Notes: generated by a model from the sequence alone, not told the origin. A stretch of 64,000 nucleotides of DNA from an uncultured Oligoflexia bacterium (GCA_950061135.1 CATLVU010000002.1:3-64002), one strand, 5' to 3'. Shown: positions 1-44,187, counted from the stretch's first letter. A program made the numbers and translations.

Positions 1-64
1 AATAACTCACTGGTAAAATCTGCACAATATTTTAGACTTGCATAAATTGCGTTATTCTAAGTGT

Positions 65-1399
65 ATGAAATATCATATTCTGTTTATTTATTTCTTCTTA
101 CTAAGCTTAGGGGCATACGGGCAGAGCGCACAGAAAATACCTACTTTTATAGACCTTGAAAATATTAATGATATTTCATCTGATGAAAAAAGATTGGTAA
201 AAAAAAGTCTCTATGAGGCGCTACTTTCTGGTAAAAACTTTGATTTGAATATTAATGGTAGTATCCCTGTCGCAGATAAAGAAAAAAAAGATTGGCTTAT
301 TATTAAAGTTAAAGTGAATAAAGAGGAGTTAGGCTATAGTGCAGAGTTAGCATTAGAGAGTTTATTGCAAAAAAAGATATTAAATAGAGTAGGTCAAGAT
401 AAAATTGCTCGTAATAAGTTACAGTTAACATTAAGACAAATGATTTATAAAGTTTTATATGGAGAGAGGTTTGACGTTGAAACAAACTCACTCAAAAATG
501 ATGAGCCAATTGCAGCAATAGCAAATTTAAATAATAATAAAGCTCCAGATATTGATCCTGATGTAGATGATCCCGATGATGTTGTTCCAGACCTTGATGA
601 AGAGAGAGAGCAAGCTTTAGATAAAGACAGTGATGATAAACCGCAAATAGCGGAACAAAAAAAAAAGAAGTCAACATCAAAAAAGCCTGAAATCAAAATT
701 AGAGACTTTGATTCACCAAATATCGACTTATCTCGAGAGCCTGTGGAAAAAGGTGATGAGCCTCAAAGGCTCCCTCCTTGGGTAAAAACTTTTGATATCG
801 AAGCTGGATTAGTATTAGAAGGGATTACTTCTAGAGTTGTCGTAGATGCATCAGAAAAAAATGCTCTTCTTAAGATAGGGGGAGAATATTTATTTTCATC
901 ACCATCTCAAGTTAGTTATTTTAAAGCTAAGGGAAGCTTTGATAAGATTTTCACTGAAGATGAATTTCAAAAACCAATTAATTTTGAATTAGGAATTAGA
1001 AGACATCTTCATCTTTTTTGGCGAAAGGTTTTTCTTTTTGGAGGAGCACACTTTGAAACAGAGAACTTCATTAATGTTAATGAGCAAGGAGCGGGCCAAC
1101 AATTATGGAGTAACCAAATTATGTGGTACGAGTTTGGAATGAATATTTTTTATCAACTATTTAATCGTACTCACGAGATAGAATATTCAGCTAAATCAAT
1201 TCTTGCAGGTGTAACAGATTTAAGTATTAATGGACAAGAAGTCTCAATTACAGGAACAAGGCTTGATATCAACCTCGTTTTTCAGATAAAAAAGAAATAT
1301 CATTTAAAACTAGGGTACAACACTCAGGCATTGCAGTCGCAAACTACTGATTTTGAATACACTCAATCGCAAATACTAGTAGGTTTACTATATAGATAG
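65..1399 (+). CDS. secreted/outer-membrane protein of unknown function (signal peptide, acidic linker, beta-rich C-terminal half)
   Basis: ORF 38..1399. The ATG at 65 opens a classic signal peptide, MKYHILFIYFFLLSLGAYGQ. A low-complexity acidic tract (DIDPDVDDPDDVVPDLDEE) is followed by about 200 aa of alternating-hydrophobicity sequence. First gene of a tightly packed same-strand cluster. Start is uncertain (TTG 38 vs ATG 65). Confidence 0.55.
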   Translation: MKYHILFIYFFLLSLGAYGQSAQKIPTFIDLENINDISSDEKRLVKKSLYEALLSGKNFDLNINGSIPVADKEKKDWLIIKVKVNKEELGYSAELALESLLQKKILNRVGQDKIARNKLQLTLRQMIYKVLYGERFDVETNSLKNDEPIAAIANLNNNKAPDIDPDVDDPDDVVPDLDEEREQALDKDSDDKPQIAEQKKKKSTSKKPEIKIRDFDSPNIDLSREPVEKGDEPQRLPPWVKTFDIEAGLVLEGITSRVVVDASEKNALLKIGGEYLFSSPSQVSYFKAKGSFDKIFTEDEFQKPINFELGIRRHLHLFWRKVFLFGGAHFETENFINVNEQGAGQQLWSNQIMWYEFGMNIFYQLFNRTHEIEYSAKSILAGVTDLSINGQEVSITGTRLDINLVFQIKKKYHLKLGYNTQALQSQTTDFEYTQSQILVGLLYR

Positions 1400-1466
1400 G
1401 CGATATTTGCCTCCTTTAGTTTAGTTTTCAAGACTTATAAAATTAAAAAGGAGGAAGTTTGTAACT

Positions 1467-2030
1467 ATGGCCCAATTACATGAAAAATTCAATTTAGTAG
1501 AGACTCTTATTGGTGATCACAAGAAGGTTGTTATTGATCAAGAAGAGGAGTTTTTCTTTTCATCTGGTAGTTTTAATTCGCAACAATATATCAAGCAATA
1601 TACAGATGATATTGAGTCTAAAGTTTATGGACTACTAGTAAAGTTTTTTAAGAAAAATCATTTTAAATTAAAAATTAATTATCATTTAATGCCAGATAAT
1701 GACCTACACGATAAATTAGTTTTTAGTTTTTATAAAGTTTTTAAATCTTTAAGTAAGGTATATCTATCACAGTTGAGTTCTGAGAAAACATATATCAAAC
1801 TTGGAATTCACGAGAATAGTTTCACTGTTAATATAACTTTTTCACCAAAAAACTCAAAGCAATGGGACACGCAAATAAATAAAATAAATAAAACCAAAAA
1901 GGGTAGTTGGGGATTATTCAAATCTAATATTCCTCGGAAGCTAAACCTGAGAGCGTCTTTCTCATACTATTCTCTGGGTAAGCAGATTATCAAGCAAAAT
2001 ACAAAGGTACGTTTAAATGAAGTTAGATAG
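1467..2030 (+). CDS. hypothetical cytoplasmic protein (no signal peptide)
   Basis: Strong RBS (aaaaaGGAGGaag) just upstream of ATG 1467. 187 aa with no recognisable motif. 14-nt overlap with the next gene. Confidence 0.6.
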   Translation: MAQLHEKFNLVETLIGDHKKVVIDQEEEFFFSSGSFNSQQYIKQYTDDIESKVYGLLVKFFKKNHFKLKINYHLMPDNDLHDKLVFSFYKVFKSLSKVYLSQLSSEKTYIKLGIHENSFTVNITFSPKNSKQWDTQINKINKTKKGSWGLFKSNIPRKLNLRASFSYYSLGKQIIKQNTKVRLNEVR

Positions 2031-3606
2031 ATTATTTATCATTTTTCTTTTTACCGTTACAATGACTGCACAAGCAAATACGGTCTTATCTACTAAGTTT
2101 ATAGAAAAGATTAATAAAACAGAAAACTCAGAGCAGCTTAATAGAGTTGTTAATGAACTTGATAAGTCTTTGTCATCTGAAACCGATAAAACACGTTTAG
2201 AAACGATTACAAGATCATTTGCAAAAGTGAATCTTGCAAAGTTTAAAGTTCAAGCAAAAGATATCTTAAATGAGATGTACACATTCCTAGCAGGACAAAA
2301 CTCAGACGTTTCGACTCAGGCCCAACGTATGATTGAGTCATCTTTTAATATATCTAAATATTCAGATGTATTAGACTTCCAAGGCCAATTGGCATTATTT
2401 GCGAATGCGATTGAACAAGACGAGAAACTTACAAAGGAAATGCTTAGTTATACAAAGAACTTACTAGGAATTCTTGAAAATCATACAAGAAATTATTTGG
2501 CATTGAATAGTTTTAGTAAATTAAAAGAGGTTTTAACGCTTTTTGTTTTGAGATCCAATACACTAAAAATACCAGTCGTTAAAACTGAGCCAACTCAAAC
2601 AAATCAAGATTCAGCTGCGATGCTTGCTGGGTGGGGATTATTTTTAATTACGTTTGGATTATATTTAAAAGCAGGATTTTTGAGAAGAAGAGAGCTTTCA
2701 AGTGAAAGAAAAAAGTGGAGTAAGCTTTGTAATGACAAAGAAGTTGAAAGGCAGTGGAGTGAAAATAAAAGTAGATTGTTAATGCGGGGAATAGGCGAAG
2801 CGTTAGTTGTGACTGATAAGAAAGGAAAAGTCATAGAATCGAATAAGAAGTCACAAGCACTTCTTGGAAGATATGCTAAGAATGGAAGTACTTTTGGAAG
2901 AGTTTTTCCAAAACTATTTATGAAAAATAATAATTTAAAACATTTTGAAGGACTTTATACGCTAAGTTTTGACCCAAAAAACTATTATCATGTACAAACA
3001 ATATTTATTAAAGAGCTAGATCAAAAAATTTATAAGATATTACCTTTGAATAAAAATGCACTTATTACTCTAGGAAAAAGCTATTTAGAGCCACAAGCAG
3101 AGACAGTGAATATTTTAGATCTGGTTGAAGATGAGTTTACAAAAAAATACAGCTTCCAAGAGTTCGAAAAACTAGAGCTTCAAAATATTAAAACTAAAGG
3201 TGACATTTCTATTGAAATTGAACCGGAGCAGGCATCAAAAATGGTTGAGCACTATTTAAACTTATCTCAAGCATTAGTTGATGTATTGAACTGTGATCAA
3301 GTAACAAGAGAAATTAAACGAACTGGTGACAAAATTCAATTGTTGGCATGTTTTGATGGAACAAAAATTCTTCAAGAAGACCTGAGCCAGCAAATAAAAA
3401 TTCAAGGAAAAAACATTACCTTAGCTGATTATTTAACGAGAGTAGAAAAAGATTATCGAGAGCTTCAGGGTGCGGTTACAATTAAAAACCTTAGGAAAGA
3501 AAAAAGACTTCAAACTATTTTGGAAGTTACTTTACTAGTCGCCTATGAGCGTAAAATAGACTCTAGAACTTATGATAGCGAAGAAGGGCAATATATCGAT
3601 GTATAA
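2017..3606 (+). CDS. bitopic membrane protein, paralog A of a degenerate histidine-kinase-ATPase-like ('pseudo-kinase') family
   Basis: N-terminal signal/anchor (LFIIFLFTVTMTAQA), a central TM (GWGLFLITFGLYL) and a cytoplasmic C-terminal half. The last ~60 aa (QQIKIQGKNITLADYLTRVEKDYRELQGAVTIKNLRKEK) align without gaps to ORF 6956..8017. No HExxxP H-box and no GxGxG box seen. Confidence 0.6.
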   Translation: MKLDRLFIIFLFTVTMTAQANTVLSTKFIEKINKTENSEQLNRVVNELDKSLSSETDKTRLETITRSFAKVNLAKFKVQAKDILNEMYTFLAGQNSDVSTQAQRMIESSFNISKYSDVLDFQGQLALFANAIEQDEKLTKEMLSYTKNLLGILENHTRNYLALNSFSKLKEVLTLFVLRSNTLKIPVVKTEPTQTNQDSAAMLAGWGLFLITFGLYLKAGFLRRRELSSERKKWSKLCNDKEVERQWSENKSRLLMRGIGEALVVTDKKGKVIESNKKSQALLGRYAKNGSTFGRVFPKLFMKNNNLKHFEGLYTLSFDPKNYYHVQTIFIKELDQKIYKILPLNKNALITLGKSYLEPQAETVNILDLVEDEFTKKYSFQEFEKLELQNIKTKGDISIEIEPEQASKMVEHYLNLSQALVDVLNCDQVTREIKRTGDKIQLLACFDGTKILQEDLSQQIKIQGKNITLADYLTRVEKDYRELQGAVTIKNLRKEKRLQTILEVTLLVAYERKIDSRTYDSEEGQYIDV

Positions 3607-4213
3607 ACTATTAATAGCGATATTCTTTTTTTCTATTGCCCACAGCTTTGCGGGCTTTAAAAGTAATATATCTTCAAGTTTTGGTTTAGTGAGTGTTAAT
3701 TTAACAGAAAGTGAAAGCACATTAGAGCAAACAGATGAAGATATTCCAGAAGGAGAAGATCAAGCTGTTTCTTCTGTGAGTCTTAGCACTGTAAGTTTAG
3801 ATCTTGTTTATGAAAAACCTCAAACTGAAAAATACTCATATCTTTTTAAGGCGGTCGTTCCTGTGGTGACAACTGAAGGAGCAGGAGTATTCATGGGAGG
3901 AGTTGGATTTAATTGGTACTTTAACGGATTGTCTGCAGCGTATACAGTCAATATTTCGGGTAGTGAAGTTTCTTTGGACCCAGGCCTTAGATACTATGCA
4001 GGAACTATGTTGGGACTAGGGTATCTTGTTTATAATACTGTATCAGCAAAAAAGAGTGATGTATTTTTTGACTTAGGACTTCACGGTGGTCTTGTTTATT
4101 CCTTTGGCAAAAAGTGGGGAATCAAGGCAGAAGCTGGTGTCGCTAGAGGAACCGGTGTTGCCACTTCGAATATTAATGTAAAAACCTTTGCAGGATTGAG
4201 TTATAACCTATGA
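3599..4213 (+). CDS. small outer-membrane beta-barrel-like protein
   Basis: ORF 3572..4213. ATG 3599 starts the signal peptide MYKLLIAIFFFSIAHSFAG and overlaps the upstream stop (ATGTATAA). Gly/aromatic-rich alternating strands continue to the C-terminus (FAGLSYNL). Confidence 0.55.
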   Translation: MYKLLIAIFFFSIAHSFAGFKSNISSSFGLVSVNLTESESTLEQTDEDIPEGEDQAVSSVSLSTVSLDLVYEKPQTEKYSYLFKAVVPVVTTEGAGVFMGGVGFNWYFNGLSAAYTVNISGSEVSLDPGLRYYAGTMLGLGYLVYNTVSAKKSDVFFDLGLHGGLVYSFGKKWGIKAEAGVARGTGVATSNINVKTFAGLSYNL

Positions 4214-4797
4214 AAATTTTAATTTTATTATTAATTTCTAATTACACATTTGCTCAAGAAGTAAAAATCAAGAGCAATGTTAAAGAAGCAATTGTTTCAT
4301 TTGTAAATAGCGCAGGAGAAAAAAAGAGTATAGGAAAAACACCTCTCGACACAACAATGGATGATTTAAAGTCTAATGTGGGAGATAAAGAGAATATTCA
4401 GTTACAAGTCTCCAAGGATGGATTTCAAAGCTTTAATCTTATTTTACCGCTTATTGGGTCATCAGAAATAAATGTTATGGCCACCTTGGAAGTAAATCAA
4501 GATATAAAACTTACTCAAGACGTAGACCTTTTAATCGCAGACTTATTTGATGTTTTAAGAATGATCAGGTTAAAAGATTATGGTTCAGCGTTTGCAAAGC
4601 TTGATTTGTTAGAAAAGAAATTTCCTTACTACAGTATTATTTATGAAATGAAGGGAATGGGACATTATTTATCTAAAGACTTTAAAAAAGCATTAAACTT
4701 CTACAGAAAAGCTTTTGGGTTAAACCCAAAAAATAGAGAAGCTTATAAAATGAAAAATTATTTAGAGAAGAAATTTAATTTACAGGCCAAAAGGTAA
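4210..4797 (+). CDS. periplasmic/lipoprotein-like protein with a PEGA-like N-domain and a TPR-like C-terminus
   Basis: ATGA overlap with the upstream gene. Signal peptide MKILILLLISNYTFAQ. PEGA-like pattern (IGKTPLD...LQVSKDGFQSF). TPR-like YYSIIYEMKGMGHYLSKDFKKALNFYRKAFGLNPKN. Confidence 0.5.
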   Translation: MKILILLLISNYTFAQEVKIKSNVKEAIVSFVNSAGEKKSIGKTPLDTTMDDLKSNVGDKENIQLQVSKDGFQSFNLILPLIGSSEINVMATLEVNQDIKLTQDVDLLIADLFDVLRMIRLKDYGSAFAKLDLLEKKFPYYSIIYEMKGMGHYLSKDFKKALNFYRKAFGLNPKNREAYKMKNYLEKKFNLQAKR

Positions 4798-4801
4798 TTG
4801 A

Positions 4802-6946
4802 ATGAAAAGAATTTTATTATGGACATTATTATTACCAGCGGTAGCGATTGCGACATCTAATAATATTTCGCAATTGCCGTCGATGGATTGGCAAAAACAG
4901 GCATTAGAAGATAGAACGAAGCAAAAAATAGATGACGTTTTAAAAAGTGTTTTGAAACCTAGCCAATACAATGTTGATATTAAAATTGAAACTCGTGGAG
5001 TCGTAGAGCCTGAGTTTGATAAACCATTGTCTGAAAAAAATAAAGAGGATGATTCAAAGTTAGATGTAGGAGAGTATGATTCAGAGACAGGAGAAGAGAG
5101 CTCCGATTCAGCACAAGCAGCAGCAGCTGATGATAAAAGAGAAAGTACTGCGGACGTGAAATTTGTAGATACATATCCTGAAGAGAGCCCTGAAGACTAT
5201 ATTATCTTTAATAAATTTGGTCTTGAAGCACCATTAGTAGATGATTTTAATGACTTTCAACCTGATGGAAAAATTGTTTTATCAATGACTGGAGGTGGAG
5301 GTCAGTCCAATCAAGACAAAGCTCAAATCAATGCAATGAAAGCTCGAGAGAAGCAATATATTGAGCAGATTAGAGATCTTAAAAATGAGAAACGGTCTGC
5401 CGAAAATAAAGTATCACCAATCGAGCAATTATGGATGTATAATAATGCAGTAGACATTTTTAAAAATCTAAAATCAGTTGATATTTTAGTTCGTGTTTCT
5501 AATGAAGTAACAGAAGAAACAAAGCAAGCTGTTGAACGCTATGTAAAAGCAATAAATTTCAATCTTGGAAAAGTTAAGCCAAATATTAAAATTGAGTATG
5601 GCCTTCTTGGTGCGCTCGCAGCTGAAACGCCAACAGATCAATTATTTAAAATTTTAGACTATTTAACAAAGTTCAGTACGTTCTTAGGAATAGTATTCGG
5701 TGTGATTTTATTTGGTCTTATAGGACGATCTCTTATTCAAAAATACTTTGATCTTAACTCTGCTCAATCTCAGAGTGGACAATTCAAAATGGATGGAGGA
5801 GAAGGAGTTGCAGGAGAAGATGGAGATGGTACCGATCATGAAGAAACATCTGGAACTAGAGAGTGGGGATCCTCTGTTGTTCCTGTAAATGGAATAGAAA
5901 GATTTGAGACATTTTTTGAAAAAGATCCACAAAATGCGATGCTATTAATAAAAAAATGGATTAGCGAAGATGATGATAGGGCAAGTAAATCTTTGAGGTC
6001 ACTTGTTCAACAATTCGAAAATGCTCAACTAGCTGAAGTTTTTAAGCATCTATCAGAAGAAGAAAGAGCAAGCTGGAAAAAGCTTCTTGACCGTCCATTG
6101 ACACGGGAAGAATTAGACATAGCTAACGCCTATATTGGAAATCAAATTGTTCAAAGTATTATCGTTGAGAAATATGTAGATGATCCAGAGACCTTTGATT
6201 TATTACTCCGTTTGACACCTAAGCAAGTGGCGATGATTGTAGAGAGAGAAGCTTCTATTTCTGGTGCATTATTAAACTCTTTAAGTGCTAACTTTGTAAG
6301 TCAGGTCCTAGGATTATGCTCAGAACAAGTTCAATCACAAATGGTACGTGATGCTGTTGCTTTAACACCAGATCAAATTAGATCAAAACAAGATGAGATT
6401 AAAGAAGTTCTTAAACAATATGATGAAAGGGTAACAAATAGACCTTTTGTTGAGAAAATTCTATCGCTATTACCTATGGCCATGCCATCAACAGAGAATA
6501 ATTTATTCCAAGCACTTTATGATAATGGAGATCAAGATCTACTCAAGAAAACGGCAAGAAAATATTTTCCAGCGGACTATATTCCAAAACTTCCTACTGA
6601 TTTTCTTAAAGAATTATTGATGGCCTACCCAATGAATAAGAAAGTCGAAATGCTTTATCCGCTTGAAGAAACGATTAAAGAGCAATTGATTGATATATTT
6701 GCTCCAGAAGGTTCTAAAGCTTATGACTTATTAGAGTTAGAATTTGAAAATATTGAAACAAATGATGTACGACAAACTCAGTTACTTAATAATGGCGATA
6801 AAAACTGGAAAGAATTTGTTAATTATGTGAGAGATAAAATAGAAAAAGATACAAATTATCAGGCAGAGATTACCGATTTACTCGATCAGTGGGTTTTAGA
6901 TAAAATGGGTGGACAAACAATGCCAGATTTAAAGGTTGTCGCGTAA
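4802..6946 (+). CDS. bitopic inner-membrane protein: periplasmic domain + TM + cytoplasmic FliG/MgtE_N-like helical repeats
   Basis: 714 aa. N-terminal signal/anchor (LLWTLLLPAVAIA), an acidic periplasmic region and a TM at FSTFLGIVFGVILFGLIG. The cytoplasmic segment LTPKQVAMIVEREASISGALLNSLSANFVSQVLGLCSEQVQSQMVRDAVALTPDQIRSKQDEI follows the FliG C-domain pattern, and a second similar repeat lies downstream. Confidence 0.55.
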   Translation: MKRILLWTLLLPAVAIATSNNISQLPSMDWQKQALEDRTKQKIDDVLKSVLKPSQYNVDIKIETRGVVEPEFDKPLSEKNKEDDSKLDVGEYDSETGEESSDSAQAAAADDKRESTADVKFVDTYPEESPEDYIIFNKFGLEAPLVDDFNDFQPDGKIVLSMTGGGGQSNQDKAQINAMKAREKQYIEQIRDLKNEKRSAENKVSPIEQLWMYNNAVDIFKNLKSVDILVRVSNEVTEETKQAVERYVKAINFNLGKVKPNIKIEYGLLGALAAETPTDQLFKILDYLTKFSTFLGIVFGVILFGLIGRSLIQKYFDLNSAQSQSGQFKMDGGEGVAGEDGDGTDHEETSGTREWGSSVVPVNGIERFETFFEKDPQNAMLLIKKWISEDDDRASKSLRSLVQQFENAQLAEVFKHLSEEERASWKKLLDRPLTREELDIANAYIGNQIVQSIIVEKYVDDPETFDLLLRLTPKQVAMIVEREASISGALLNSLSANFVSQVLGLCSEQVQSQMVRDAVALTPDQIRSKQDEIKEVLKQYDERVTNRPFVEKILSLLPMAMPSTENNLFQALYDNGDQDLLKKTARKYFPADYIPKLPTDFLKELLMAYPMNKKVEMLYPLEETIKEQLIDIFAPEGSKAYDLLELEFENIETNDVRQTQLLNNGDKNWKEFVNYVRDKIEKDTNYQAEITDLLDQWVLDKMGGQTMPDLKVVA

Positions 6947-6955
6947 GGATAATTT

Positions 6956-8017
6956 ATGATTAAAATATTATTAGCTTGTATTATGATTAGTTTTTCTTTT
7001 TATGGCCATACTGTTGAGGTTGGTACTGATTATATTAAATACCTTAATAAGATTAATTCTGTTAAAAGTATTCAACAAGCGAAAGATTTATCAAAAGAAA
7101 TTGAATCTAAATTACAGCTTAAGAAGAACAAAGTACATTTGTCATTATTAGCAAAAAGATTTGATGAAGAGGCTGAAAACCTTAAGGCCAAAGATGCACT
7201 AGCTGAGTATAGAAGAGTGATGACATTATTTTTAACTGCAAACTCTTTGAGAGAGTTTAATCCTATGCCTTCTTATAAAACGATTGAGAAAACCCAGAAT
7301 ATGATGTGGACACTAGGTGTTTTTATTTTGGCTTTTTTTGCTGCACTTTTTTGGAGCTTAAGACAGAGATCGACATTTTTAGCAACACGTTTAATTGATA
7401 AAAAACAAATAATAAAATTAGGAACGAGGATAGAAGAATTAGAGTCATTACTGTCCTCAAGAGAAATGACAACGCCAGTTGAAATACAGCAACCTTTAGA
7501 GAACTCTGATTTTATCCATCCTGTAGAGTTTGTTGAAAATTTCCTTATAGAAAAACTAAATTTTAAGGATCATACAAATTTAAAAATTAATGAAGATGAT
7601 AAAGTTGAAGATTCAAAGTTTGCATATTCTTCTGAACTTGCAGATTCATTTATTACGAAATATTTTGAATTAGTTTATGGAATGCAAAGTATTTTAGAGT
7701 CAGGTGAGATGCAGCTTAACTTTAAAAAAGATGAAGGACTGTTTAGTTATGATTTGTCTTTTTCTAATGTAAAATTGTCTGCAGAGGACTTAGAAAAACA
7801 AATAGAAGTTGCAGGTGAGAAGGTCGTTTTTGCAGACTATTTAAAAGAGATAGAAGTTTACTTTAAAAGAGAGCAAGCAAACTTGAAAATTAAAAACTTA
7901 AAAAAGTCTGGCGTAAATTCTGTTCAAGTCTCATTAGAGTTAATTGAAAATAGTATTATTCAAGAAGATAGCAAAGTAGAAAGTCACTCAGCCAATAATA
8001 CTCATCAGAGCTTATAA
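6956..8017 (+). CDS. bitopic membrane protein, paralog B of the pseudo-kinase family
   Basis: Signal/anchor, central TM (MWTLGVFILAFFAALFWSL) and a C-terminus (KQIEVAGEKVVFADYLKEIEVYFKREQANLKIKNLKKSG) homologous to ORF 2017..3606. Last gene of the cluster. Confidence 0.6.
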   Translation: MIKILLACIMISFSFYGHTVEVGTDYIKYLNKINSVKSIQQAKDLSKEIESKLQLKKNKVHLSLLAKRFDEEAENLKAKDALAEYRRVMTLFLTANSLREFNPMPSYKTIEKTQNMMWTLGVFILAFFAALFWSLRQRSTFLATRLIDKKQIIKLGTRIEELESLLSSREMTTPVEIQQPLENSDFIHPVEFVENFLIEKLNFKDHTNLKINEDDKVEDSKFAYSSELADSFITKYFELVYGMQSILESGEMQLNFKKDEGLFSYDLSFSNVKLSAEDLEKQIEVAGEKVVFADYLKEIEVYFKREQANLKIKNLKKSGVNSVQVSLELIENSIIQEDSKVESHSANNTHQSL

Positions 8018-8818
8018 TTACTCAATACTCGCAGGCTGCCTTTGCAATCTTAATAAAGCTTTTTTCTTAGGGCATTCTATAGATTTTTTATTTCCAGTGC
8101 GGGCATCTTTCACGATAACTTGCTGAATATTTCCCATATTATCTTGTGCAAAAATAAACTGATTCGTTTTCTCATTAAACATAGCACTTAATTTGAGTCT
8201 TTGATTATCAATTTGGTTCCAAATAGGTTTGTTAACAATGATATTTTCTTCAGTTAAAGTGACCAGTTGTTCATGACCGTCTATAGAAAATGAAATAGAG
8301 TCTGGGCCCATATTTACGTTTCTAATTTGACATTGATTACCTTGAGAAAAAGAGCTGAGTTTATGATAAAACTCATTGAGTGGTAATTTTCTCGATAGCA
8401 TTTGAGTATATTTTTTATAATTTGTTTTAACCTCTCTTTCAAATGCTTCAAGTAAAAGATGTGTACCGTTAACATGTGCCAAAGACAAAGTATCAACTTG
8501 CTCACTACTAAGAACCTTTGAGTATTCAATTTCTTTTGCTACTTTTTTAAGATCAGAACTTAGCTTTGCAAGATTTGTAATTGATTTTTGATATGACTTT
8601 TTAAGTTTCTCTCCAAGCTCAACTAATTGTTGATCAGACTTTTTCTTTTGTAATTCTTTTGGGATATAGAAACTTAACCCTTGGTCTAAAACATCGTCTT
8701 CTATAATATTAATTTGCTTGGCATATACATGATATTGTTGCTCTTTATCACTAAGCTCTTTGGCCAGTAAATTTGGTGTTAGATTGAATAATAGGAGTGA
8801 TAACAATAAGTTTTTCAT
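8018..8818 (-). CDS. secreted hypothetical protein
   Basis: 266 aa with signal peptide MKNLLLSLLLFNLTPNLLA. Its stop codon directly abuts the stop of the convergent gene (TAATTA at 8015..8020). Confidence 0.55.
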   Translation of the reverse strand: MKNLLLSLLLFNLTPNLLAKELSDKEQQYHVYAKQINIIEDDVLDQGLSFYIPKELQKKKSDQQLVELGEKLKKSYQKSITNLAKLSSDLKKVAKEIEYSKVLSSEQVDTLSLAHVNGTHLLLEAFEREVKTNYKKYTQMLSRKLPLNEFYHKLSSFSQGNQCQIRNVNMGPDSISFSIDGHEQLVTLTEENIIVNKPIWNQIDNQRLKLSAMFNEKTNQFIFAQDNMGNIQQVIVKDARTGNKKSIECPKKKALLRLQRQPASIE

Positions 8819-9688: not shown

Positions 9689-10285
9689 ATGATCTACGAA
9701 ACAGCGTACGTATTACGTGCCGACACGACAGAAGATGCTATTAACAAAATGGCAGAAACAGTTAAAGCTACAATTGCAGAGTATGCAGGAGAAGTCCTTG
9801 TAAGCGATGCATGGGGAGTTAAAACTTTCGCTCAACCAACTTCAAAGGGTGAAACTCGAGGAAATTATTTTTACGTTATGTATAAAGCAAATACAGAATG
9901 TAACAAAGAACTTGAAAGAAGATTCAGAATTAGTGAAGAAACTTTAAAGTTTATTTTTGTTAAGCTTGGAGTTGAAGCTGACCAAGAAGCAATTGTTAAG
10001 GGATATAAAAACCCTGATCACGCGGTAACTGAAGCTGGTGCTGATGATGATAAAGAAAGAAAGATGTTTTCAAAAAGAAAGTCTTGTTGGTTTTCAGCAA
10101 AGAAAACTTCTCCAGACTGGAAACATGCAAATACATACGCATGGTTAGTTAATGAGTTTGGTAAAATTTCTCCAGCACGAGTGACAGGTCTAAGACCAAA
10201 GTATCAAAGAGCTGCTACAACTGCGATTAAGCGTGGACGTTGCATGGGAATGATCAGTCATATGTCTAGTAGAACATTAAGATAA
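9689..10285 (+). CDS. rpsF/rpsR: fused 30S ribosomal proteins S6 (N-terminal) and S18 (C-terminal) in one 198-aa ORF
   Basis: The N-terminal ~115 aa fit S6 (MIYETAYVLRAD...GNYFYVMYKA...RFRISEETLKFIFVKL). The C-terminal ~75 aa fit S18 (KRKSCWFSAKK...GKISPARVTGLRPKYQRAATTAIKRGR). The reading frame is continuous. RBS aGGAGaataagt lies before the ATG. Confidence 0.85.
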   Translation: MIYETAYVLRADTTEDAINKMAETVKATIAEYAGEVLVSDAWGVKTFAQPTSKGETRGNYFYVMYKANTECNKELERRFRISEETLKFIFVKLGVEADQEAIVKGYKNPDHAVTEAGADDDKERKMFSKRKSCWFSAKKTSPDWKHANTYAWLVNEFGKISPARVTGLRPKYQRAATTAIKRGRCMGMISHMSSRTLR

Positions 10286-14890: not shown

Positions 14891-15664
14891 ATGGATATAG
14901 CTACGGTTATTGGTTTAGTTCTCGCGATTGTCTCTATACTAGGATCGATTCTAGCAGGTGGAACACTCGGCGCTTTTATTGATGTTCCCTCTATACTGGT
15001 TGTTGGAGGAGGAGTTACCTCTGCAATTTTTATAAAATGGCCATTAGATCAAGTAAAGATGCTAGTGCCTGTTTATATGAAATCCATTATGAATACGGCA
15101 ACAGATCCTAAAGGTATAATTGAAGAGATACAGTCTTTAGCAGAAACAGCAAGAAGAGAGTCTGTTTTCGCACTCGAAAAAGTTCCTGTAGAAGATGCCT
15201 TTTTGAAAAAAGCGGTGACACTTGCTGCAGATAATAGACCTCCTGAAATTATAACTTCAGTTCTACAATTAGAAATTGATTCGGTATCTGAAAGGCATAA
15301 GCTAGGGATTAATATTATAGAAAATGTTGGTAATGATGGCCCAGCATTCGGAATGATTGGGACACTTATTGGACTTGTTATCATGCTTCAAAACTTATCA
15401 GGTGGTCCTGAAGAGCTAGGTAAGGCGATGGCAGTTGCGATTCTTACTACTTTTTATGGAGCTGTCCTAGCAAACGTTTTTGCGCTCCCAATTGCTAACA
15501 AACTAAAGTTTTATTCTGAAAATGAAATACTTGTTATGAATATTATTGTTGCTGGTGTACTGGGAATTGTTGCTGGTGAGAACCCAAGAGTTATTCGAGA
15601 AAAACTTGATTCATTTTTACCTCCTGCTCAAAGAAATATTGAATCTGAAGATGGAGGAGAATAA
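14891..15664 (+). CDS. motA: flagellar stator protein MotA/PomA (PomA-like)
   Basis: MDIATVIGLVLAIV N-terminus, four TMs, PAFGMIGTLIGLV and AILTTFYGAVLAN. Overall colinear with Vibrio PomA as I remember it. The ORF-track TTG at 14858 would add 11 non-conserved residues. Confidence 0.9.
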   Translation: MDIATVIGLVLAIVSILGSILAGGTLGAFIDVPSILVVGGGVTSAIFIKWPLDQVKMLVPVYMKSIMNTATDPKGIIEEIQSLAETARRESVFALEKVPVEDAFLKKAVTLAADNRPPEIITSVLQLEIDSVSERHKLGINIIENVGNDGPAFGMIGTLIGLVIMLQNLSGGPEELGKAMAVAILTTFYGAVLANVFALPIANKLKFYSENEILVMNIIVAGVLGIVAGENPRVIREKLDSFLPPAQRNIESEDGGE

Positions 15665-16458
15665 TGGCCGATGAAGATGTAGTAAACGAATGTCCTGAAT
15701 GTGAGCCCATACCTGAGTGTAAAAAAGGTGCTCCCGAATGGATGGCGACATTTTCAGATCTCGTTACACTATTATTAACATTCTTTGTTCTTTTATATGC
15801 CATGAGTAAGACCGATGAGAGTAAATTTGAGTCTGTAGCTGGTTCAATCAGAAAAGCCTTTGCAGGGAACGCTCTTAAAATAGGAGAAACCATTCAGCTT
15901 GGTAAGTCTCCAGATGATGCTCCAACTATGATTGAGTCTCAAGAGCCTGTAGAGCCTTTTCCAATTGACTTGTTAACTACAGAAGGTTTTTTAGATAAAC
16001 AAGAGATTAATAGAGAATCAGATGAGGTATTAGCAGAAATGCGAAAAACGATTCAAAGTTATGACCTTGCAGAATCAGTCGATTTTTATCAGATGAAAGA
16101 AGGAATTAAAATTAGAGTTAAGGATAAAATAATCTTTAAACCTAATAGTACCGAAATGGCGAATACAAGTTTTCAAAATGTATTTCAAAGAGTTGTTAAA
16201 CTTTTAAGGGAAAACAAGTGGACTGTTTTTGTTGAAGGGTATGCAGATAAGAATGAAAGAGATGCTTATAATTTAAGTTCTCAAAGAACAATGGTTGTGA
16301 TGAAGGCCATCACTGATAGAGGCGTCAGCGCTGATCGAGTAACGCCAGTTTTCTATGGTTCAAGTCGGGCTGTAGAGAATGACTTTAATAGTAAAGTCGA
16401 ATTAATTTTGAGAAAAAGAGACCTAAGAACACCAGGTAAAAGAGTTCCATCTAGGTAA
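15664..16458 (+). CDS. motB: flagellar stator protein MotB/PomB with an OmpA-like C-terminal domain
   Basis: PEWMATFSDLVTLLLTFFVLL carries the conserved channel Asp. The Cys-rich N-terminus NECPECEPIPEC resembles Vibrio PomB. Its start codon abuts the motA stop (motA ends at 15664, the first base of this gene). Confidence 0.9.
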   Translation: MADEDVVNECPECEPIPECKKGAPEWMATFSDLVTLLLTFFVLLYAMSKTDESKFESVAGSIRKAFAGNALKIGETIQLGKSPDDAPTMIESQEPVEPFPIDLLTTEGFLDKQEINRESDEVLAEMRKTIQSYDLAESVDFYQMKEGIKIRVKDKIIFKPNSTEMANTSFQNVFQRVVKLLRENKWTVFVEGYADKNERDAYNLSSQRTMVVMKAITDRGVSADRVTPVFYGSSRAVENDFNSKVELILRKRDLRTPGKRVPSR

Positions 16459-41899: not shown

Positions 41900-43138
41900 T
41901 TGGAAGCAACAGAATTTCAGGCACTTTTTGAACATTCTTCAATGGGAATTATTATTTCTAATCAAGAAGGGATTATTGAGAAATGTAATCCATTTGCATG
42001 TAAGTTATTTGGATATCAGGATTCTCAGCTGGAAGGGAAAGCTATAGAAATTCTTGTACCTAAAGTATTACGGGAAAGGCATATTCGCTATAGAGAGAAC
42101 TATAATAAAAAGCCGACGAGTCGTGCAATGGGTGGGACATTAACTGTTCAAGGCTTTAAAAAAGATGATTCAAAGTTTCCTGTAGAGATTAGTCTTACTT
42201 TTTATAAAGACAAAGATAAAAATACTAAGATTGTAAGTTTTGTCAGTGATATTACTGAGAGAAAAAAGGCAGAAGATGCACTGGCTAAGCTTACAGGCGA
42301 ATTGGAAGACAAAGTTAATAATCGAACAAAAGAGCTCTCTGATGCTCTTGTCGAGTTAAACAATTCTCATCAGATAATAGAAAAAGAAGTAGAAAAACGT
42401 AAACAGGTAGAAAAAGATATTCGTGAAAGTTTGGAAAGAGAAAAAGAACTAAGCGAATTAAAATCTCGTTTTGTTTCAATGGCATCACATGAATTTAGAA
42501 CACCATTGGCGGGGATTCTTTCATCAGCTTCGTTATTAGATAAGTATAATGAAATAGGTGATAGTGAAAAACATAAAAAACATATTGTGAAAATTAAGAA
42601 ATCAGTAAAACATCTGACTAATATATTAAATGAGTTTTTATCAATGGATAAGCTTGATCAGGGGAAACTTGCTATAAATATTTCAGAGTTTTCAATTTTA
42701 GAATTAGTTAAAGATTTGAATGAAAGTATGGAAGAAATTTTTAAAAAAGGTCAAACTTTAATTGTGACGAATAATTCAAATGATTTTTTGGTAAAGCTGG
42801 ATAGAGAAATACTACATAATAGTTTAGTGAATTTATTATCAAATGCAGTAAAATATTCAGCAGAGAATGCTAATATTTACTTAATTATTCACGAAAACAA
42901 GGATAATTTTTCAATAAGTATAAAAGACGAAGGGATTGGTATTCCTAAGGAAGACCAAAAACATTTATTTGAAAGATTTTTTAGGGCCCATAATGTAACA
43001 ACAATAAAAGGAACAGGGCTTGGTTTAAATATAGTAAAAAGTTATTTAAAACTTTTAGATGGTGTTATCAGCTTTGAAAGCGAAGAGGGAGTAGGGACTG
43101 TATTTACAATCCAGCTACAGAAGGAATTAAAAGAATGA
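41900..43138 (+). CDS. PAS-domain sensor histidine kinase (FixL-like PAS, soluble)
   Basis: The PAS segment GKAIEILVPKVLRERHIRYRENY...VQGFKKDDSKFPVEISL...SDITERK is colinear with the FixL heme-PAS. H-box SHEFRTPL, N-box LLSNAVKYS, and G-boxes DEGIGIP / GTGLGLNIV. TTG start with an AAGAGG RBS. Confidence 0.85.
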   Translation: MEATEFQALFEHSSMGIIISNQEGIIEKCNPFACKLFGYQDSQLEGKAIEILVPKVLRERHIRYRENYNKKPTSRAMGGTLTVQGFKKDDSKFPVEISLTFYKDKDKNTKIVSFVSDITERKKAEDALAKLTGELEDKVNNRTKELSDALVELNNSHQIIEKEVEKRKQVEKDIRESLEREKELSELKSRFVSMASHEFRTPLAGILSSASLLDKYNEIGDSEKHKKHIVKIKKSVKHLTNILNEFLSMDKLDQGKLAINISEFSILELVKDLNESMEEIFKKGQTLIVTNNSNDFLVKLDREILHNSLVNLLSNAVKYSAENANIYLIIHENKDNFSISIKDEGIGIPKEDQKHLFERFFRAHNVTTIKGTGLGLNIVKSYLKLLDGVISFESEEGVGTVFTIQLQKELKE

Positions 43139-44187
43139 AAAAGATTTTGTTAATTGAAGATGATGAGATAATGAGAGAAAATACTGCTGAAATTTTAGAG
43201 CTAGCACAGTTTGATGTTACCACAGCTGCTGATGGTAAGATTGGAAGTAAGCTAGCAAAAGAAATAATTCCAGATTTAATTGTCAGTGATATCATGATGC
43301 CAGGACTTGATGGTTATGGGGTATTACATATTCTTTCTAAAGATCCAAAGACAGCAAATATTCCTTTTATTTTTCTTACTGCAAAAGCTGAAAAAAGCGA
43401 ATGGAGAAAAGGAATGGAACTTGGAGCTGACGATTATATAACAAAGCCATTTGATGATACAGAACTGTTAAATGCAATTGAAATTAGATTAAAAAAATCA
43501 GCAGCTCGCAAGAAAGAGTTCGAGCGAAGTGAAGTGGGACTGGATTCATTTTTCAAAGAAGTTAAAAGTATAAAAGAGCTTAAAGATCTTTCTTTGAATA
43601 GACCCAAAGCAGTTTATAAGAAAAAAGAAATTATTTACCATGATGGAGATAAACCTCATTATGTTTATTTTATAAATTCGGGAAAAGTAAAAATTTATAA
43701 AACCCATGACGATGGAAAAGAGTATATAACTCAGGTGCTGAAGTCTGGGGACTTTTTTGGGCATACAGCGATGTTCGAGGGGAGTAATTATAATGATTCA
43801 GCCCTCGTTTTAGAAAATAGTGAGATTATTAAAATCCCTAAAGAGGATTTTATGGCACTTATTTTTCAAAATAGAGATGTTGCGGGACAATTTATAAAAA
43901 TGCTATCAAACCAAGTTGAAGAGCAAGAAGAGCAGCTTATAAAATTGGCCTATGATACCGTTAGAAAAAGAACGGCAGATGCTCTCTTAAATCTTAAAAA
44001 GCAATACAAAGCCGATTCTCCAGATGGTGCTATCGCAGTTACACGAGAAAATTTGGCCAGTATGGTTGGAACAGCTACAGAAACCGTTATCAGATGCCTT
44101 GGAGAGTTCAAAGAAGACGGTTTTATCGAAGTTAGTGGTCGCTCTATTAAAGTTCTTGATGAAGAAGGATTAAATTCAGTTCAATAA
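43135..44187 (+). CDS. response regulator: receiver domain fused to a Crp/Fnr-type cNMP-binding + HTH module
   Basis: Receiver (ILLIEDD...DLIVSDIMMPGLDG...LTAK...ITKP), then a cNMP-binding-like barrel (YFINSGKVKIYK) and a Crp-type HTH with recognition helix TETVIRCL. ATGA overlap with the kinase gene. Confidence 0.85.
   Translation: MKKILLIEDDEIMRENTAEILELAQFDVTTAADGKIGSKLAKEIIPDLIVSDIMMPGLDGYGVLHILSKDPKTANIPFIFLTAKAEKSEWRKGMELGADDYITKPFDDTELLNAIEIRLKKSAARKKEFERSEVGLDSFFKEVKSIKELKDLSLNRPKAVYKKKEIIYHDGDKPHYVYFINSGKVKIYKTHDDGKEYITQVLKSGDFFGHTAMFEGSNYNDSALVLENSEIIKIPKEDFMALIFQNRDVAGQFIKMLSNQVEEQEEQLIKLAYDTVRKRTADALLNLKKQYKADSPDGAIAVTRENLASMVGTATETVIRCLGEFKEDGFIEVSGRSIKVLDEEGLNSVQ

What the first reader, a model, noticed from the sequence alone, without database searches (positions are those of the whole stretch)
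38..8017. Seven translationally coupled envelope genes with no recognisable family: candidate uncharacterised trans-envelope machine
Seen in the sequence: seven same-strand ORFs are packed with overlaps or tiny gaps. The junctions are a 67-nt gap with a GGAGG RBS, a 14-nt overlap, the ATGTATAA overlap, an ATGA overlap, a 4-nt gap and a 9-nt gap. Their predicted locations cover every envelope layer. Two are signal-peptide beta-rich proteins (65..1399, 3599..4213). One is a PEGA+TPR-like periplasmic protein (4210..4797). Three are bitopic inner-membrane proteins with large cytoplasmic domains (2017..3606, 4802..6946, 6956..8017). One is a cytoplasmic protein (1467..2030). I recognise no catalytic motif, ATPase or motor gene inside the cluster. 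The layout (OM barrels + TPR adaptor + IM proteins with cytoplasmic scaffolding domains) resembles the organisation of gliding (Glt/Agl), Tol-Pal-like or flagellar-accessory complexes. The individual sequences do not match any family I know. The nearest proton/sodium motor is the PomAB-like pair 7 kb downstream.
Basis: partly seen in the sequence, partly recalled or inferred. Interest (0 to 1): 0.72.

Follow-up and report, generated by a model that had tools for sequence, protein, structure and literature searches.

The report
Flagellum-less MotAB/FliG-like envelope machine
The seven genes are the tail end of a larger conserved locus in predatory Bacteriovoracia that pairs its own MotA/MotB ion motor with a fused FliF/FliG-like rotor protein, outer-membrane proteins and giant surface lipoproteins, but has no flagellar genes, so it looks like an undescribed non-flagellar use of the flagellar rotor-stator pair.

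Summary
Seven tightly packed same-strand genes lie at 65-8017, and no Pfam or NCBIfam model reaches its cut-off. Two parts of the interpretation need changing.

(1) One gene is recognisable. g6 (4802-6946) has a signal peptide, a periplasmic domain, one TM helix and a cytoplasmic domain like full-length FliG. A 56-sequence profile hits FliG at E=1.3e-6. The top 12 Foldseek hits are all FliG. The two main torque-helix charges are conserved. The periplasmic part aligns weakly with FliF RBM3.

(2) The cluster is cut off by the window edge and does have a motor. On the window's own contig the operon starts about 12 kb upstream with three giant fn3/Ig-like lipoproteins. A divergent MotA*/MotB* pair faces it. 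This stator clade sits beside the cluster in 15 distinct loci and six gene arrangements. The PomAB-like pair 7 kb downstream is an ordinary flagellar stator, not the cognate one.

g1-g6 synteny is conserved across Bacteriovoracia; g7 is specific to this species. The g6 family has 439 clusters at 50% identity.

Best reading (inferred, untested): a MotAB-powered FliF/FliG-like ring couples through periplasmic and outer-membrane proteins to giant surface lipoproteins. I found no description of it in the literature.

The parts
1..5 (+). Last bases and stop codon of gU2. gU2 is a 1691-aa lipoprotein with HYDIN/ASH-type Ig-like domains whose gene runs off the left edge of the window. Upstream on the same contig lie gU1 (1762-aa lipoprotein, fn3 plus a weak FGE-sulfatase-like match) and p643 (643-aa fn3 lipoprotein). 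Beyond them, divergently transcribed, lie MotA* (261 aa), MotB* (237 aa) and p181.
   Evidence: The window is identical to L032 from position 15072. Gene maps. Pfam and NCBIfam. Lipoboxes.
65..1399 (+). g1, 444 aa. It has a signal peptide, an N-terminal alpha/beta domain, an acidic then Lys-rich linker, and a beta-rich C-terminal third. It is a presumed outer-membrane protein.
   Evidence: ORF. Alignment of 11 orthologues. No Pfam, NCBIfam or PDB-sequence hit. Orthologues found in 28 loci. The outer-membrane location is inferred.
1398..1412 (+). Small GC hairpin followed by a T-rich tail in the 67-nt gap after g1. It may be a partial terminator or attenuator between g1 and g2-g7.
   Evidence: This is a consensus match only; the number of such sites in the region is not above shuffles.
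1467..2030 (+). g2, 187 aa, with no hydrophobic segment, so presumed cytoplasmic. It evolves fast (14-24% identity among positional orthologues).
   Evidence: It is unrelated to g3 by profile-profile comparison.
2017..3606 (+). g3, 529 aa. It has an N-terminal signal or anchor, a helical periplasmic domain, a TM segment (199-217), a PAS-like domain (about 255-340) and a C-terminal alpha/beta domain of unknown fold that is shared with g7.
   Evidence: PAS: profile hit to ThkA PAS (3a0r, E=0.003) and PAS_8 in two orthologues. The C-domain profile has no PDB hit.
3599..4213 (+). g4, 204 aa. It has a signal peptide and is a Gly/aromatic-rich beta protein, presumed to be a small outer-membrane barrel. 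It is well conserved (mean column identity 51%).
4210..4797 (+). g5, 195 aa. It has a signal peptide, a beta-rich N-terminal domain (PEGA-like by motif only) and a C-terminal TPR-like helical domain. It lies directly upstream of g6 in every locus examined.
4802..6946 (+). g6, 714 aa, the FliF-like/FliG-like fusion. It has a signal peptide (1-18), a periplasmic domain (25-290), a TM segment (294-312), a disordered acidic/Gly linker and a cytoplasmic FliG-like domain (about 364-701).
   Evidence: Profile vs PDB. AF2 models. Foldseek. Family size. Hydropathy.
4874..5671 (+). g6 periplasmic domain. Its order is alpha-beta, then a disordered acidic insert, then the most conserved periplasmic motif F-x-K-F/L-G-L-E-A-P-L-I-D-D-F-N-D-F, then a long helix, then alpha-beta-alpha-beta. 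The first alpha-beta aligns with the start of FliF RBM3.
   Evidence: Weak FliF hits: E=0.12, 0.31 and 1.1. Foldseek is not significant.
5891..6904 (+). g6 cytoplasmic FliG-like region, three armadillo-like helical domains equivalent to FliG N, M and C.
   Evidence: The top 12 Foldseek hits are all FliG, with 209-339 alignment columns (309-339 for the seven full-length FliG structures, 209-222 for the five partial structures) and probability 0.99-1.0. FliG MC profile hit: E=1.3e-6.
6701..6748 (+). Torque-helix-like motif of g6 (residues 634-649, A-P-E-G-S-K-A-Y-D-L-L-E-L-E-F-E). K639 aligns with FliG R281 and E647 with FliG D289 (E. coli numbering).
   Evidence: HMMER alignments. Conservation over 164 family members: G637 91%, K639 76%, acidic residue at 642 97%, E647 91% plus 7% D.
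6956..8017 (+). g7, 353 aa. It has an N-terminal signal or anchor, a helical periplasmic domain, a TM segment (117-135) and a cytoplasmic domain paralogous to the g3 C-terminal domain. It lacks the PAS domain. A gene at this position is present only in the window's species.
   Evidence: BLASTP g3 vs g7 E=9e-11. Absence of a gene at this position elsewhere. Hydropathy. A protein that looks g7-like by eye is encoded at another position in L025.

Best explanation
The seven genes are the distal part of a roughly 23-kb locus. Its layout is <-p181 <-MotB* <-MotA* | p643 -> gU1 -> gU2 -> g1 -> g2 -> g3 -> g4 -> g5 -> g6 -> g7. I propose that it encodes a flagellum-independent trans-envelope machine built around the flagellar rotor-stator pair.

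Shown by computation:
- g6 has FliF topology (periplasmic domain between an N-terminal signal and a TM helix), fused to a complete FliG-like cytoplasmic domain.
- That domain keeps the basic and acidic residues spaced eight apart on the torque helix.
- A separate clade of flagellar-type stators, MotA*/MotB*, is physically linked to the cluster in every locus where this can be assessed. MotB* has the plug, the conserved channel Asp in SYADMMTLI, and an OmpA-like peptidoglycan anchor.
- The remaining products are predicted periplasmic, outer-membrane or lipoprotein species.

Inferred:
- g6 assembles into an inner-membrane ring, as FliF and FliG do.
- Peptidoglycan-anchored MotA*5B*2 units use the ion gradient to push on the FliG-like domains, turning or cyclically displacing the ring.
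- The conserved periplasmic motif of g6 hands this motion to g5 (beta domain plus TPR) and the outer-membrane proteins g4 and g1.
- These in turn act on the three giant fn3/Ig-like lipoproteins at the cell surface. The output would be movement or tensioning of adhesins, as in gliding, surface scouting or prey contact.
- g3, g7 and g2 would be cytoplasmic-side regulators or scaffolds with a PAS input, taking the place of the missing FliM/FliN switch.
For: g6 is FliG-like:
- The 26-sequence profile hits T. maritima FliG MC at E=7e-4. The 56-sequence profile hits it at E=1.3e-6 and Salmonella FliG at E=2e-3.
- The AF2 model has pLDDT 80-93 over residues 364-701.
- The 12 best Foldseek PDB hits are all FliG. 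They include full-length 3hjl, 8umx_B and 8wiw_3 with 309-339 aligned columns.
- Pfam MgtE_N is precomputed for three family members.
- Torque-helix residues are aligned and conserved. Their role in MotA contact (R90/D288-D289 and E98/R281) is stated in PMC12505986.

FliF-likeness:
- Topology.
- Three of the four non-FliG PDB hits are FliF, all at the RBM3 start.

Dedicated stator:
- The MotA* proteins are 42-73% identical to each other (92-98% within the two closely related pairs L013/L015 and L020/L021). They are only 25-33% identical to the window's PomA-like protein and to Vibrio PomA.
- The window contig's own MotA* scores 192-256 bits against MotA* members, 90 bits against Vibrio PomA and 76 bits against the window's PomA-like protein.
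- MotA*/MotB* lie beside the cluster in 15 distinct loci and six arrangements.
- Every long locus without a visible MotA* has gU2 running off the fetched flank. That is the layout of the window's own contig, where MotA* lies beyond the giants.

Other evidence:
- Giants are linked upstream, downstream or convergently.
- None of the fetched loci contains an export-gate, rod, hook, FliM or FliN gene (Pfam columns).
- The family is large: 439 clusters at 50% identity, 259 of them with E<=1e-30.
Against: - No experiment, structure of a complex or expression data exists.
- Identity to FliG is only 12-19%. No Pfam FliG or YscJ_FliF model is hit.
- The FliM-binding EHPQR motif is not kept in the window protein.
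- The periplasmic domain has no significant structural match: best Foldseek E=0.29, FliF ring E=0.57. Ring formation is therefore inferred.
- The acidic partner residue of MotA (E98/E96) is not clearly conserved in MotA*.
- g1, g2, g4 and the g3/g7 C-domain have no assignable fold.
- Genomic linkage shows functional association, not mechanism.
- In B. bacteriovorus, three motAB pairs all serve one flagellum (Morehouse 2011, as cited in PMC3526173). An extra stator is therefore not in itself non-flagellar.
Confidence: 0.55

Rival explanations
1. Flagellar accessory. g6, MotA*/B* and the envelope proteins form part of, or modulate, the organism's single polar sheathed flagellum. Examples would be an extra stator set with its own docking ring, a stator reservoir or brake, or sheath- and basal-disc-type periplasmic scaffolds.
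For: MotA*/B* are flagellar-type: they have MotB_plug and OmpA domains, and the best NCBIfam hits are PomA, MotP and MotD. FliG and FliF homology is by definition flagellar. Bdellovibrio uses three motAB pairs on one flagellum (cited in PMC3526173). Elaborate periplasmic scaffolds with TPR proteins and ARM-like ring proteins exist in other motors (PMC13023049).
Against: No flagellar structural, export or switch gene is present in any of about 30 loci. There is no hit to FlgP/O/T, PflA/B, FlgY or FliL models. A second FliF/FliG-like ring cannot sit concentrically in place of the MS/C ring. The constant partners are giant surface lipoproteins, which are unknown in flagellar motors.
Confidence: 0.15
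2. A Ton/Tol-like energy transducer that is not a rotating ring. MotA*/B* energise g6 as a monomer or dimer, in the way ExbBD acts on TonB or TolQR on TolA. Through g5, g4 and g1 this drives an outer-membrane process such as export, surface exposure or tethering of the giant lipoproteins, or envelope integrity.
For: The architecture is the same as Ton/Tol: an inner-membrane 5:2 motor, a bitopic inner-membrane protein reaching into the periplasm, a TPR or periplasmic adaptor, and outer-membrane proteins. The three giants are lipoproteins that must reach the surface. Ring-building ability of the g6 periplasmic domain is unproven.
Against: TonB and TolA couple to their motors through the TM helix, not through a FliG-type cytoplasmic domain. 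What is conserved in g6 is the torque-helix region. The stator is of the flagellar (plug plus OmpA) type rather than the Exb/Tol type. FliG-type ARM domains polymerise head-to-tail in all known cases (established knowledge).
Confidence: 0.2
3. A sensory or regulatory membrane complex. The PAS protein g3, its paralogue g7 and the neighbouring hybrid histidine kinase and response regulators form a signalling module. The FliG-like domain is only a protein-interaction scaffold, as the MgtE N domain is.
For: g3 has a PAS domain. A HAMP-HATPase kinase lies next to p181 on the window's contig, and its homologue plus two response regulators lie next to g6 in L025. FliG-like ARM domains occur in non-rotor proteins such as MgtE and FlgY (PMC13023049).
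Against: g2, g3 and g7 are the least conserved parts and are missing or reduced in L030. MotA*/B*, g1, g4, g5 and g6 are constant. Similarity covers all three FliG domains including the C-terminal torque domain, which MgtE and FlgY lack.
Confidence: 0.07
4. Unrelated hypothetical envelope genes that merely happen to be adjacent, so there is no system.
For: Most products have no family assignment. Promoter and terminator scans are uninformative.
Against: There are overlapping start and stop codons. The gene set is conserved through six different rearrangements and down to 24-27% identity of g6.
Confidence: 0.03

Closest known systems
Flagellar motor core: FliF (MS ring), FliG (rotor) and MotA/MotB or PomA/PomB (stator)
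   Same: g6 has FliF topology and a full three-domain FliG-like cytoplasmic part. Basic and acidic torque-helix residues sit at the R281 and D289 positions. The locus has its own flagellar-type MotA/MotB with plug, channel Asp and OmpA-like anchor. Engineered FliF-FliG fusions still form rings (PMC11481574, abstract seen), so a natural fusion is mechanically plausible.
   Different: There is no type III export gate, rod, hook, filament, FliM/FliN or L/P-ring gene in any locus. The periplasmic part is about 260 aa and is not recognisably RBM1 or RBM2. Identity to FliG is 12-19% and no Pfam FliG model is hit. EHPQR is not conserved. The partners are outer-membrane beta proteins, a TPR protein and giant lipoproteins. 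The stator clade is separate from the PomAB-type pair of the same genome.
Bacteroidota gliding/T9SS motor (GldLM stator, GldK/GldN ring, GldJ, giant adhesin SprB)
   Same: The concept is the same: an ion-driven inner-membrane motor coupled across the periplasm to outer-membrane-associated proteins and very large repeat-rich surface proteins (PMC8986121, abstract seen). The giants here carry an FGE-sulfatase-like domain: PF03781 in the L028 orthologue and E=0.08 in gU1. From my own knowledge, this is the fold of the lipoproteins GldJ and GldK.
   Different: The motor is MotAB-type, not GldLM. A FliG-like rotor is present, which T9SS lacks. No T9SS or Gld NCBIfam model is hit. No T9SS C-terminal sorting domains were detected.
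Myxococcus/Bdellovibrio Agl-Glt gliding complex
   Different: Agl motors are TolQR-type ('GIT' clade, PMC12505986). Here the stator is flagellar-type. No Glt or Agl family hit was found. Agl-Glt has no FliG-like protein.
E-ring proteins FlgY/FlbB/MotE (periplasmic ARM-like, MgtE_N/FliG-like head domain)
   Same: They contain an ARM-like MgtE_N/FliG-type helical repeat and form rings near the MS ring (PMC13023049).
   Different: Those have a single periplasmic ARM-like domain. The g6 ARM-like region is cytoplasmic (it follows the TM helix) and spans all three FliG domains including the torque domain.

Membership tests
FliG (flagellar rotor/switch protein) | Three armadillo-like helical domains (N, M, C) with the FliG fold | tested here: met
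   AF2 model residues 364-701 have pLDDT 80-93. Foldseek ranks 1-12 are all FliG. Full-length FliG structures align over 309-339 columns with probability 1.0.
FliG (flagellar rotor/switch protein) | Significant sequence-profile similarity to FliG | tested here: met
   hmmsearch vs PDB gives 3ajc at E=1.3e-6 and 8umx_B at E=2e-3. However, no Pfam FliG_N/M/C hit appears at E<1, only MgtE_N at E=0.029.
FliG (flagellar rotor/switch protein) | Charged torque-helix residues that contact MotA (E. coli R281, D288/D289) | tested here: met
   K639 aligns with R281 and E647 with D289. K is 76% conserved and E/D 98% conserved in 164 homologues. The D288 position is hydrophobic, so the match is partial.
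FliG (flagellar rotor/switch protein) | EHPQR motif of the middle domain (FliM docking) and a FliM/FliN partner | tested here: not met
   The aligned segment is E-R-E-A-S in the window protein and D-P-x-x-G in the family consensus. No FliM or FliN gene is present in any locus.
FliG (flagellar rotor/switch protein) | Separate soluble protein encoded among flagellar genes | tested here: not met
   It is fused behind a TM helix. The neighbours are non-flagellar.
FliF/SctJ ring-building-motif (RBM) proteins | Topology: N-terminal signal or TM, periplasmic domain, TM, cytoplasmic tail that meets FliG | tested here: met
   Hydropathy and the AxA-type signal peptide. Here the cytoplasmic tail is the FliG-like domain itself.
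FliF/SctJ ring-building-motif (RBM) proteins | RBM alpha-beta-beta-alpha-beta fold and similarity to FliF RBM3 | tested here: inconclusive
   Three FliF sequences are hit at the RBM3 start, but with E=0.12-1.1. The domain model has pLDDT 77. The best Foldseek E is 0.29, FliF ring 7bk0_B gives 0.57 and 6sd1 RBM3 gives 0.74.
FliF/SctJ ring-building-motif (RBM) proteins | Ring oligomerisation | not testable with these tools
   Multimer prediction and experiments are not available here.
Flagellar-type MotA/MotB stator (for MotA*/MotB* on the same contig, outside the window) | MotA_ExbB channel domain, MotB plug, conserved TM Asp, OmpA-like peptidoglycan-binding domain | tested here: met
   Pfam PF01618, PF13677 and PF00691. 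SYADMMTLI in MotB*, and PPAFGMMGT and PIGD prolines in MotA*.
Flagellar-type MotA/MotB stator (for MotA*/MotB* on the same contig, outside the window) | Reaches an NCBIfam equivalog cut-off (PomA, MotA, MotP) | tested here: not met
   The best hit is PomA at 137.5 bits against a cut-off of 341. The window's own PomA-like protein scores 242.6.
Agl-Glt gliding machinery | TolQR-type AglRQS motor and GltA-K homologues | tested here: not met
   No Pfam or NCBIfam hit to any such family was found. The stator is flagellar-type.
Type IX secretion / Gld gliding | GldK/L/M/N (PorK/L/M/N) core | tested here: not met
   No NCBIfam or Pfam hit was found. Only a weak FGE-sulfatase-like match appears in gU1 (E=0.08), with PF03781 in one orthologue.
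Tol-Pal / TonB systems | TolQRA-TolB-Pal or ExbBD-TonB components | tested here: not met
   No hits were found. MotB* matches Pal only through the shared OmpA-like domain at 20.7 bits.
Zorya anti-phage system | ZorA (large MotA-like protein with a long tail), ZorB and ZorC/D/E effectors | tested here: not met
   PADLOC hits only ZorB models, at 26-49 bits, through general MotB homology. There is no ZorA hit for MotA* and no hit for any other protein.

The most novel reading that the evidence does not exclude
Bacteriovoracia carry a second, flagellum-independent rotary motor. A dedicated MotA*5B*2 stator clade turns a ring of FliF-FliG fusion proteins that has no export gate, rod or filament. 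The torque passes through a PEGA/TPR protein and outer-membrane barrels to giant Ig/fn3 lipoproteins on the surface, for gliding or prey contact. This would be the first natural use of the FliG-MotA interface outside a flagellum. It would be either an exaptation or a relative of a pre-flagellar rotor.
Probability: 0.35. Interest if true: 0.92.

Novelty: new variant of a known kind. Interest (0 to 1): 0.8.

Why it matters
To my knowledge, FliG and its torque-generating contact with MotA are known only from flagella. I searched the held literature five times and found no natural non-flagellar FliF/FliG-MotAB system. Other 5:2 ion motors (Exb, Tol, Agl, GldL, Zor) use quite different output proteins. 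This locus keeps the rotor-stator pair, discards the whole export and axial apparatus, and ties the pair to outer-membrane proteins and giant surface lipoproteins. That has three consequences.

- It gives a concrete, genetically tractable candidate for unexplained surface behaviours of marine predatory bacteria. Halobacteriovorax isolates carry the cluster, for example strain GB3 (L029).
- It offers a minimal rotor for studying torque generation without the export apparatus.
- It makes one question about flagellar evolution directly testable: can the rotor-stator module function, or did it originate, independently of the type III secretion core?

It also shows that a stator paralogue in these genomes should not be assumed to drive the flagellum.

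Tried and rejected
- Pfam, NCBIfam and PADLOC on all seven proteins gave nothing above cut-off.
- The search for homologous proteins with g3 alone, and then with the g3 alignment, returned only the query. No MSA-based structure of g3 was therefore possible.
- Profiles of g1, g4 and the g3/g7 C-domain against PDB sequences gave no meaningful hit. By eye the g3/g7 C-domain resembles a degenerate histidine-kinase ATPase domain, but no tool result supports this.
- The idea that g2 is related to g3 was rejected by hhalign (probability 0.1).
- The idea that the PomAB-like pair at 14891-16458 is the cluster's motor was rejected. It is closer to Vibrio PomA (37% identity, 180 bits) than to any cluster-linked MotA* (28-33%). 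The true MotA* was found upstream on the same contig.
- A domain-only AF2 model of the g6 periplasmic part was made to test RBM similarity. Foldseek was not significant.
- Promoter and terminator scans were no better than shuffles.
- Cluster look-ups of distant g6 homologues returned no names or taxa.
It was solved through the listing of cluster members followed by the look-up of encoding contigs.
- Five literature searches found no description of this system.

Full report
**Observation.** The window has about 32% GC. Seven + strand ORFs lie at 65-1399 (g1), 1467-2030 (g2), 2017-3606 (g3), 3599-4213 (g4), 4210-4797 (g5), 4802-6946 (g6) and 6956-8017 (g7). Hydropathy supports signal-peptide-like N-termini on g1, g4 and g5. 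It supports an N-terminal hydrophobic segment plus one internal TM on g3, g6 and g7, and none on g2. Pfam and NCBIfam give nothing above cut-off. The only hints are a TPR in g5 and MgtE_N (E=0.029) in g6.

**The cluster is truncated by the window edge.** Exact look-ups place the window on a 285,860-bp ENA metagenome scaffold. The window is identical to locus L032 from position 15072. Upstream on the same strand, with a 4-nt overlap and 14- and 59-nt gaps, lie three lipoprotein genes. They are p643 (fn3 repeats), gU1 (1762 aa; fn3 plus a weak FGE-sulfatase-like match, E=0.08) and gU2 (1691 aa; HYDIN/ASH-type Ig-like, choice-of-anchor-D-like). Window bases 1-5 are the end of gU2. Across a 228-bp gap, transcribed divergently from p643, lie MotA* (261 aa), MotB* (237 aa) and a 181-aa single-TM protein. 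A HAMP-HATPase kinase follows.

**g6 is a FliF-like/FliG-like fusion.**
- The first homology search found 35 homologues at E<=0.001, all of unknown function. The few that carry names come from Halobacteriovorax, Halobacteriovoraceae or Bacteriovoracaceae.
- A 26-sequence profile against all PDB sequences hit T. maritima FliG (E=7e-4) and then FliF (E=0.1).
- With 56 sequences the FliG hit improved to E=1.3e-6. Salmonella FliG appeared at E=2e-3. Three different FliF sequences were hit at the start of RBM3 (E=0.12, 0.31, 1.1).
- The AF2 model has pLDDT 80-93 across residues 364-701. Its 12 best Foldseek PDB matches are all FliG. Full-length FliG structures align over 309-339 columns at probability 1.0.
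- HMMER aligns invariant K639 with FliG R281 and invariant E647 with D289. These are the residues that pair with MotA E98 and R90 (PMC12505986).
- In 164 family members the motif G-S/T-K-A-R-D/E-M/L-L-D/E-L-E-F-E is the most conserved stretch of the cytoplasmic domain.
- The FliM-docking EHPQR motif is not kept.
- A model of the periplasmic domain alone (pLDDT 77) shows, in order, alpha-beta, a disordered insert, a conserved hairpin motif, a long helix and alpha-beta-alpha-beta. Foldseek finds nothing significant (best E=0.29; FliF ring E=0.57). FliF-likeness therefore rests on topology and weak but consistent profile hits.
- A full scan of 1.84 billion representatives finds 439 clusters at E<=1e-3 and 259 at E<=1e-30. 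Most are 600-800 aa.

**A dedicated stator.**
- More distant g6 homologues have MotA/MotB immediately adjacent. L027 reads g4-g5-g6-MotA-MotB-g1. L028 reads MotA-MotB-g5-g6. L025 has MotA-MotB-g1... and g5-g6 a few kb apart.
- In closer relatives the pair is divergent from g1 or 1.4 kb downstream.
- These MotA* proteins form one clade. They are 42-73% identical to each other (92-98% within two closely related pairs). They are only 25-33% identical to the window's MotA at 14891-15664, which is itself 37% identical (180 bits) to Vibrio PomA. The pair 7 kb downstream is therefore an ordinary PomAB-type flagellar stator and not the cognate motor.
- The MotA* of the window's own contig belongs to the MotA* clade. 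It scores 192-256 bits against clade members and 76 bits against the window's PomA-like protein.
- MotB* has the plug, the channel Asp (SYADMMTLI) and an OmpA-like domain.
- MotA* falls far below every NCBIfam equivalog cut-off (137 bits vs 341).
- PADLOC excludes a Zorya-type system.

**Synteny.**
- HMM and phmmer scans of 35 loci show g5-g6 adjacent everywhere. These loci are GTDB genomes, JGI metagenomes and exact-look-up contigs, and a few are redundant. g4 is usually directly upstream. g1 is present wherever the flank allows. g2 and g3 evolve fast (14-24% identity) and are missing between g1 and g4 in L030. g7 is confined to the window's species.
- MotA*/MotB* are found beside the cluster in 15 distinct loci and six arrangements.
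- The eight long loci without a visible MotA* all have gU2 running off the fetched flank. That is the layout of the window's own contig.
- The giants are linked upstream, downstream or convergently in most lineages.
- No locus contains a flagellar export, rod, hook, switch or ring gene.
- GC of all loci is 32-42% and all named sources are Bacteriovoracia-type Bdellovibrionota.

**Other proteins.**
- g3 has a PAS domain: ThkA PAS at E=0.003 and PAS_8 in two orthologues.
- The g3 C-terminal domain is shared with g7 (BLASTP E=9e-11). By eye it is also shared with proteins in L025 and L030. It has no PDB-sequence match.
- g5 has a TPR and an N-terminal beta domain with a PEGA-like motif, seen by eye only.
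- g1 and g4 have no detectable relatives outside the family.

**Mechanism.** The following are shown:
- the composition and conservation of the locus;
- FliG-type fold and torque-helix charges in g6;
- a private, apparently functional flagellar-type stator;
- predicted locations of the products in every envelope layer.

The following are inferred:
- g6 forms an inner-membrane ring;
- MotA*B* units anchored to peptidoglycan apply torque to it;
- the conserved periplasmic motif of g6 couples to g5, g4 and g1;
- the load is the set of giant surface lipoproteins;
- g2, g3 and g7, and possibly the neighbouring kinase, regulate the cytoplasmic face.

I put 0.55 on this being a distinct MotA*-driven, FliF/FliG-like machine that is separate from the flagellum. 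The specific output (adhesin movement, gliding or prey contact) is much less certain. The rivals are a flagellar accessory (0.15), a Ton/Tol-like non-rotary transducer (0.20), a signalling complex (0.07) and chance adjacency (0.03).

**Comparison and novelty.** The closest known system is the flagellar FliF-FliG-MotAB core. This locus works like it at the rotor-stator interface. It fails membership on the EHPQR/FliM feature, the genomic context, the Pfam and NCBIfam thresholds and the absence of all export and axial parts. Conceptually it resembles the GldLM/T9SS-SprB and Agl-Glt gliding machines but shares none of their defining proteins. Five literature searches found only engineered FliF-FliG fusions and no natural non-flagellar example. 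The published Bacteriovorax marinus SJ genome analysis recognised only one motAB pair (PMC3526173). I classify the locus as a new variant of a known kind (ion-driven rotor-stator envelope machines). There is a realistic chance (about 0.35) that it is a genuinely new, flagellum-independent rotary system.

Noticed in passing
window 14891-16458 (+): A PomA/PomB-like flagellar stator pair. MotA is 37% identical (E=9e-51) to Vibrio alginolyticus PomA and keeps the R88/K89/E96 equivalents. The likely true start is the ATG at 14891, not the TTG at 14858. It lies among housekeeping genes (dnaB, a chorismate-binding enzyme, a pseudouridine synthase) and is not the stator linked to the cluster.
   Followed up: yes
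window 9689-10285 (+): A single 198-aa ORF carries both a Ribosomal_S6 domain (3-92) and a Ribosomal_S18 domain (139-188). It is an apparent natural S6-S18 fusion, followed by a DUF2232 membrane protein and rplI. The same fused gene is called on the public contigs.
   Followed up: partly
window 53821-55995 (+): A 724-aa ORF combines COX1 (CcoN-like) and FixO (CcoO) domains. It is a fused cbb3-type oxidase subunit N-O.
   Followed up: no
window 43135-44187 (+), next to the PAS-HisKA-HATPase kinase at 41900-43138: A response-regulator receiver fused to a cNMP-binding domain and a Crp-type HTH. This is an unusual three-part regulator paired with a PAS kinase.
   Followed up: no
window 1398-1412 (+): A terminator-like hairpin (AGGCGATATTTGCCT plus a T-rich tail) lies directly after the g1 stop, in the only sizeable intergenic gap of the cluster. 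It could set a higher g1:g2-g7 expression ratio.
   Followed up: no
L031 (ENA ERZ23832080 k127_2003995), compared with L032: A second assembly of the same species has frameshifts in three genes of the locus. MotA* is split into 31 + 194 aa, p643 into 347 + 296 aa, and g2 is cut to 83 aa. All three are intact on the window's contig. This is either assembly error or decay of the system in that population.
   Followed up: partly
L032 1-495 (+) and L025 5479-9279: A HAMP-HATPase_c histidine kinase (870 aa) flanks p181-MotB*-MotA* on the window's contig. Its homologue (E=4.5e-35; HAMP-Hpt-HATPase) plus two single-domain response regulators sit next to g6 in a distant relative. This may be a dedicated two-component control.
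   Followed up: partly
window 8018-8818 (-): A convergent 266-aa secreted coiled-coil-like protein whose stop codon abuts the g7 stop. It gives a weak IMD/BAR-like Pfam hit (E=3e-4). No homologue was detected in the relatives that were scanned (L010-L024).
   Followed up: no
L030 12095-12944 (+) and 15099-16166 (-): In the closest relative (g6 47% identical), g2 and g3 are missing between g1 and g4. Instead, two small genes follow g6: a 149-aa gene that is g2-like by its N-terminus and a 145-aa gene resembling the g3 C-domain, both judged by eye. A 355-aa multi-TM protein precedes MotA*.
   Followed up: partly
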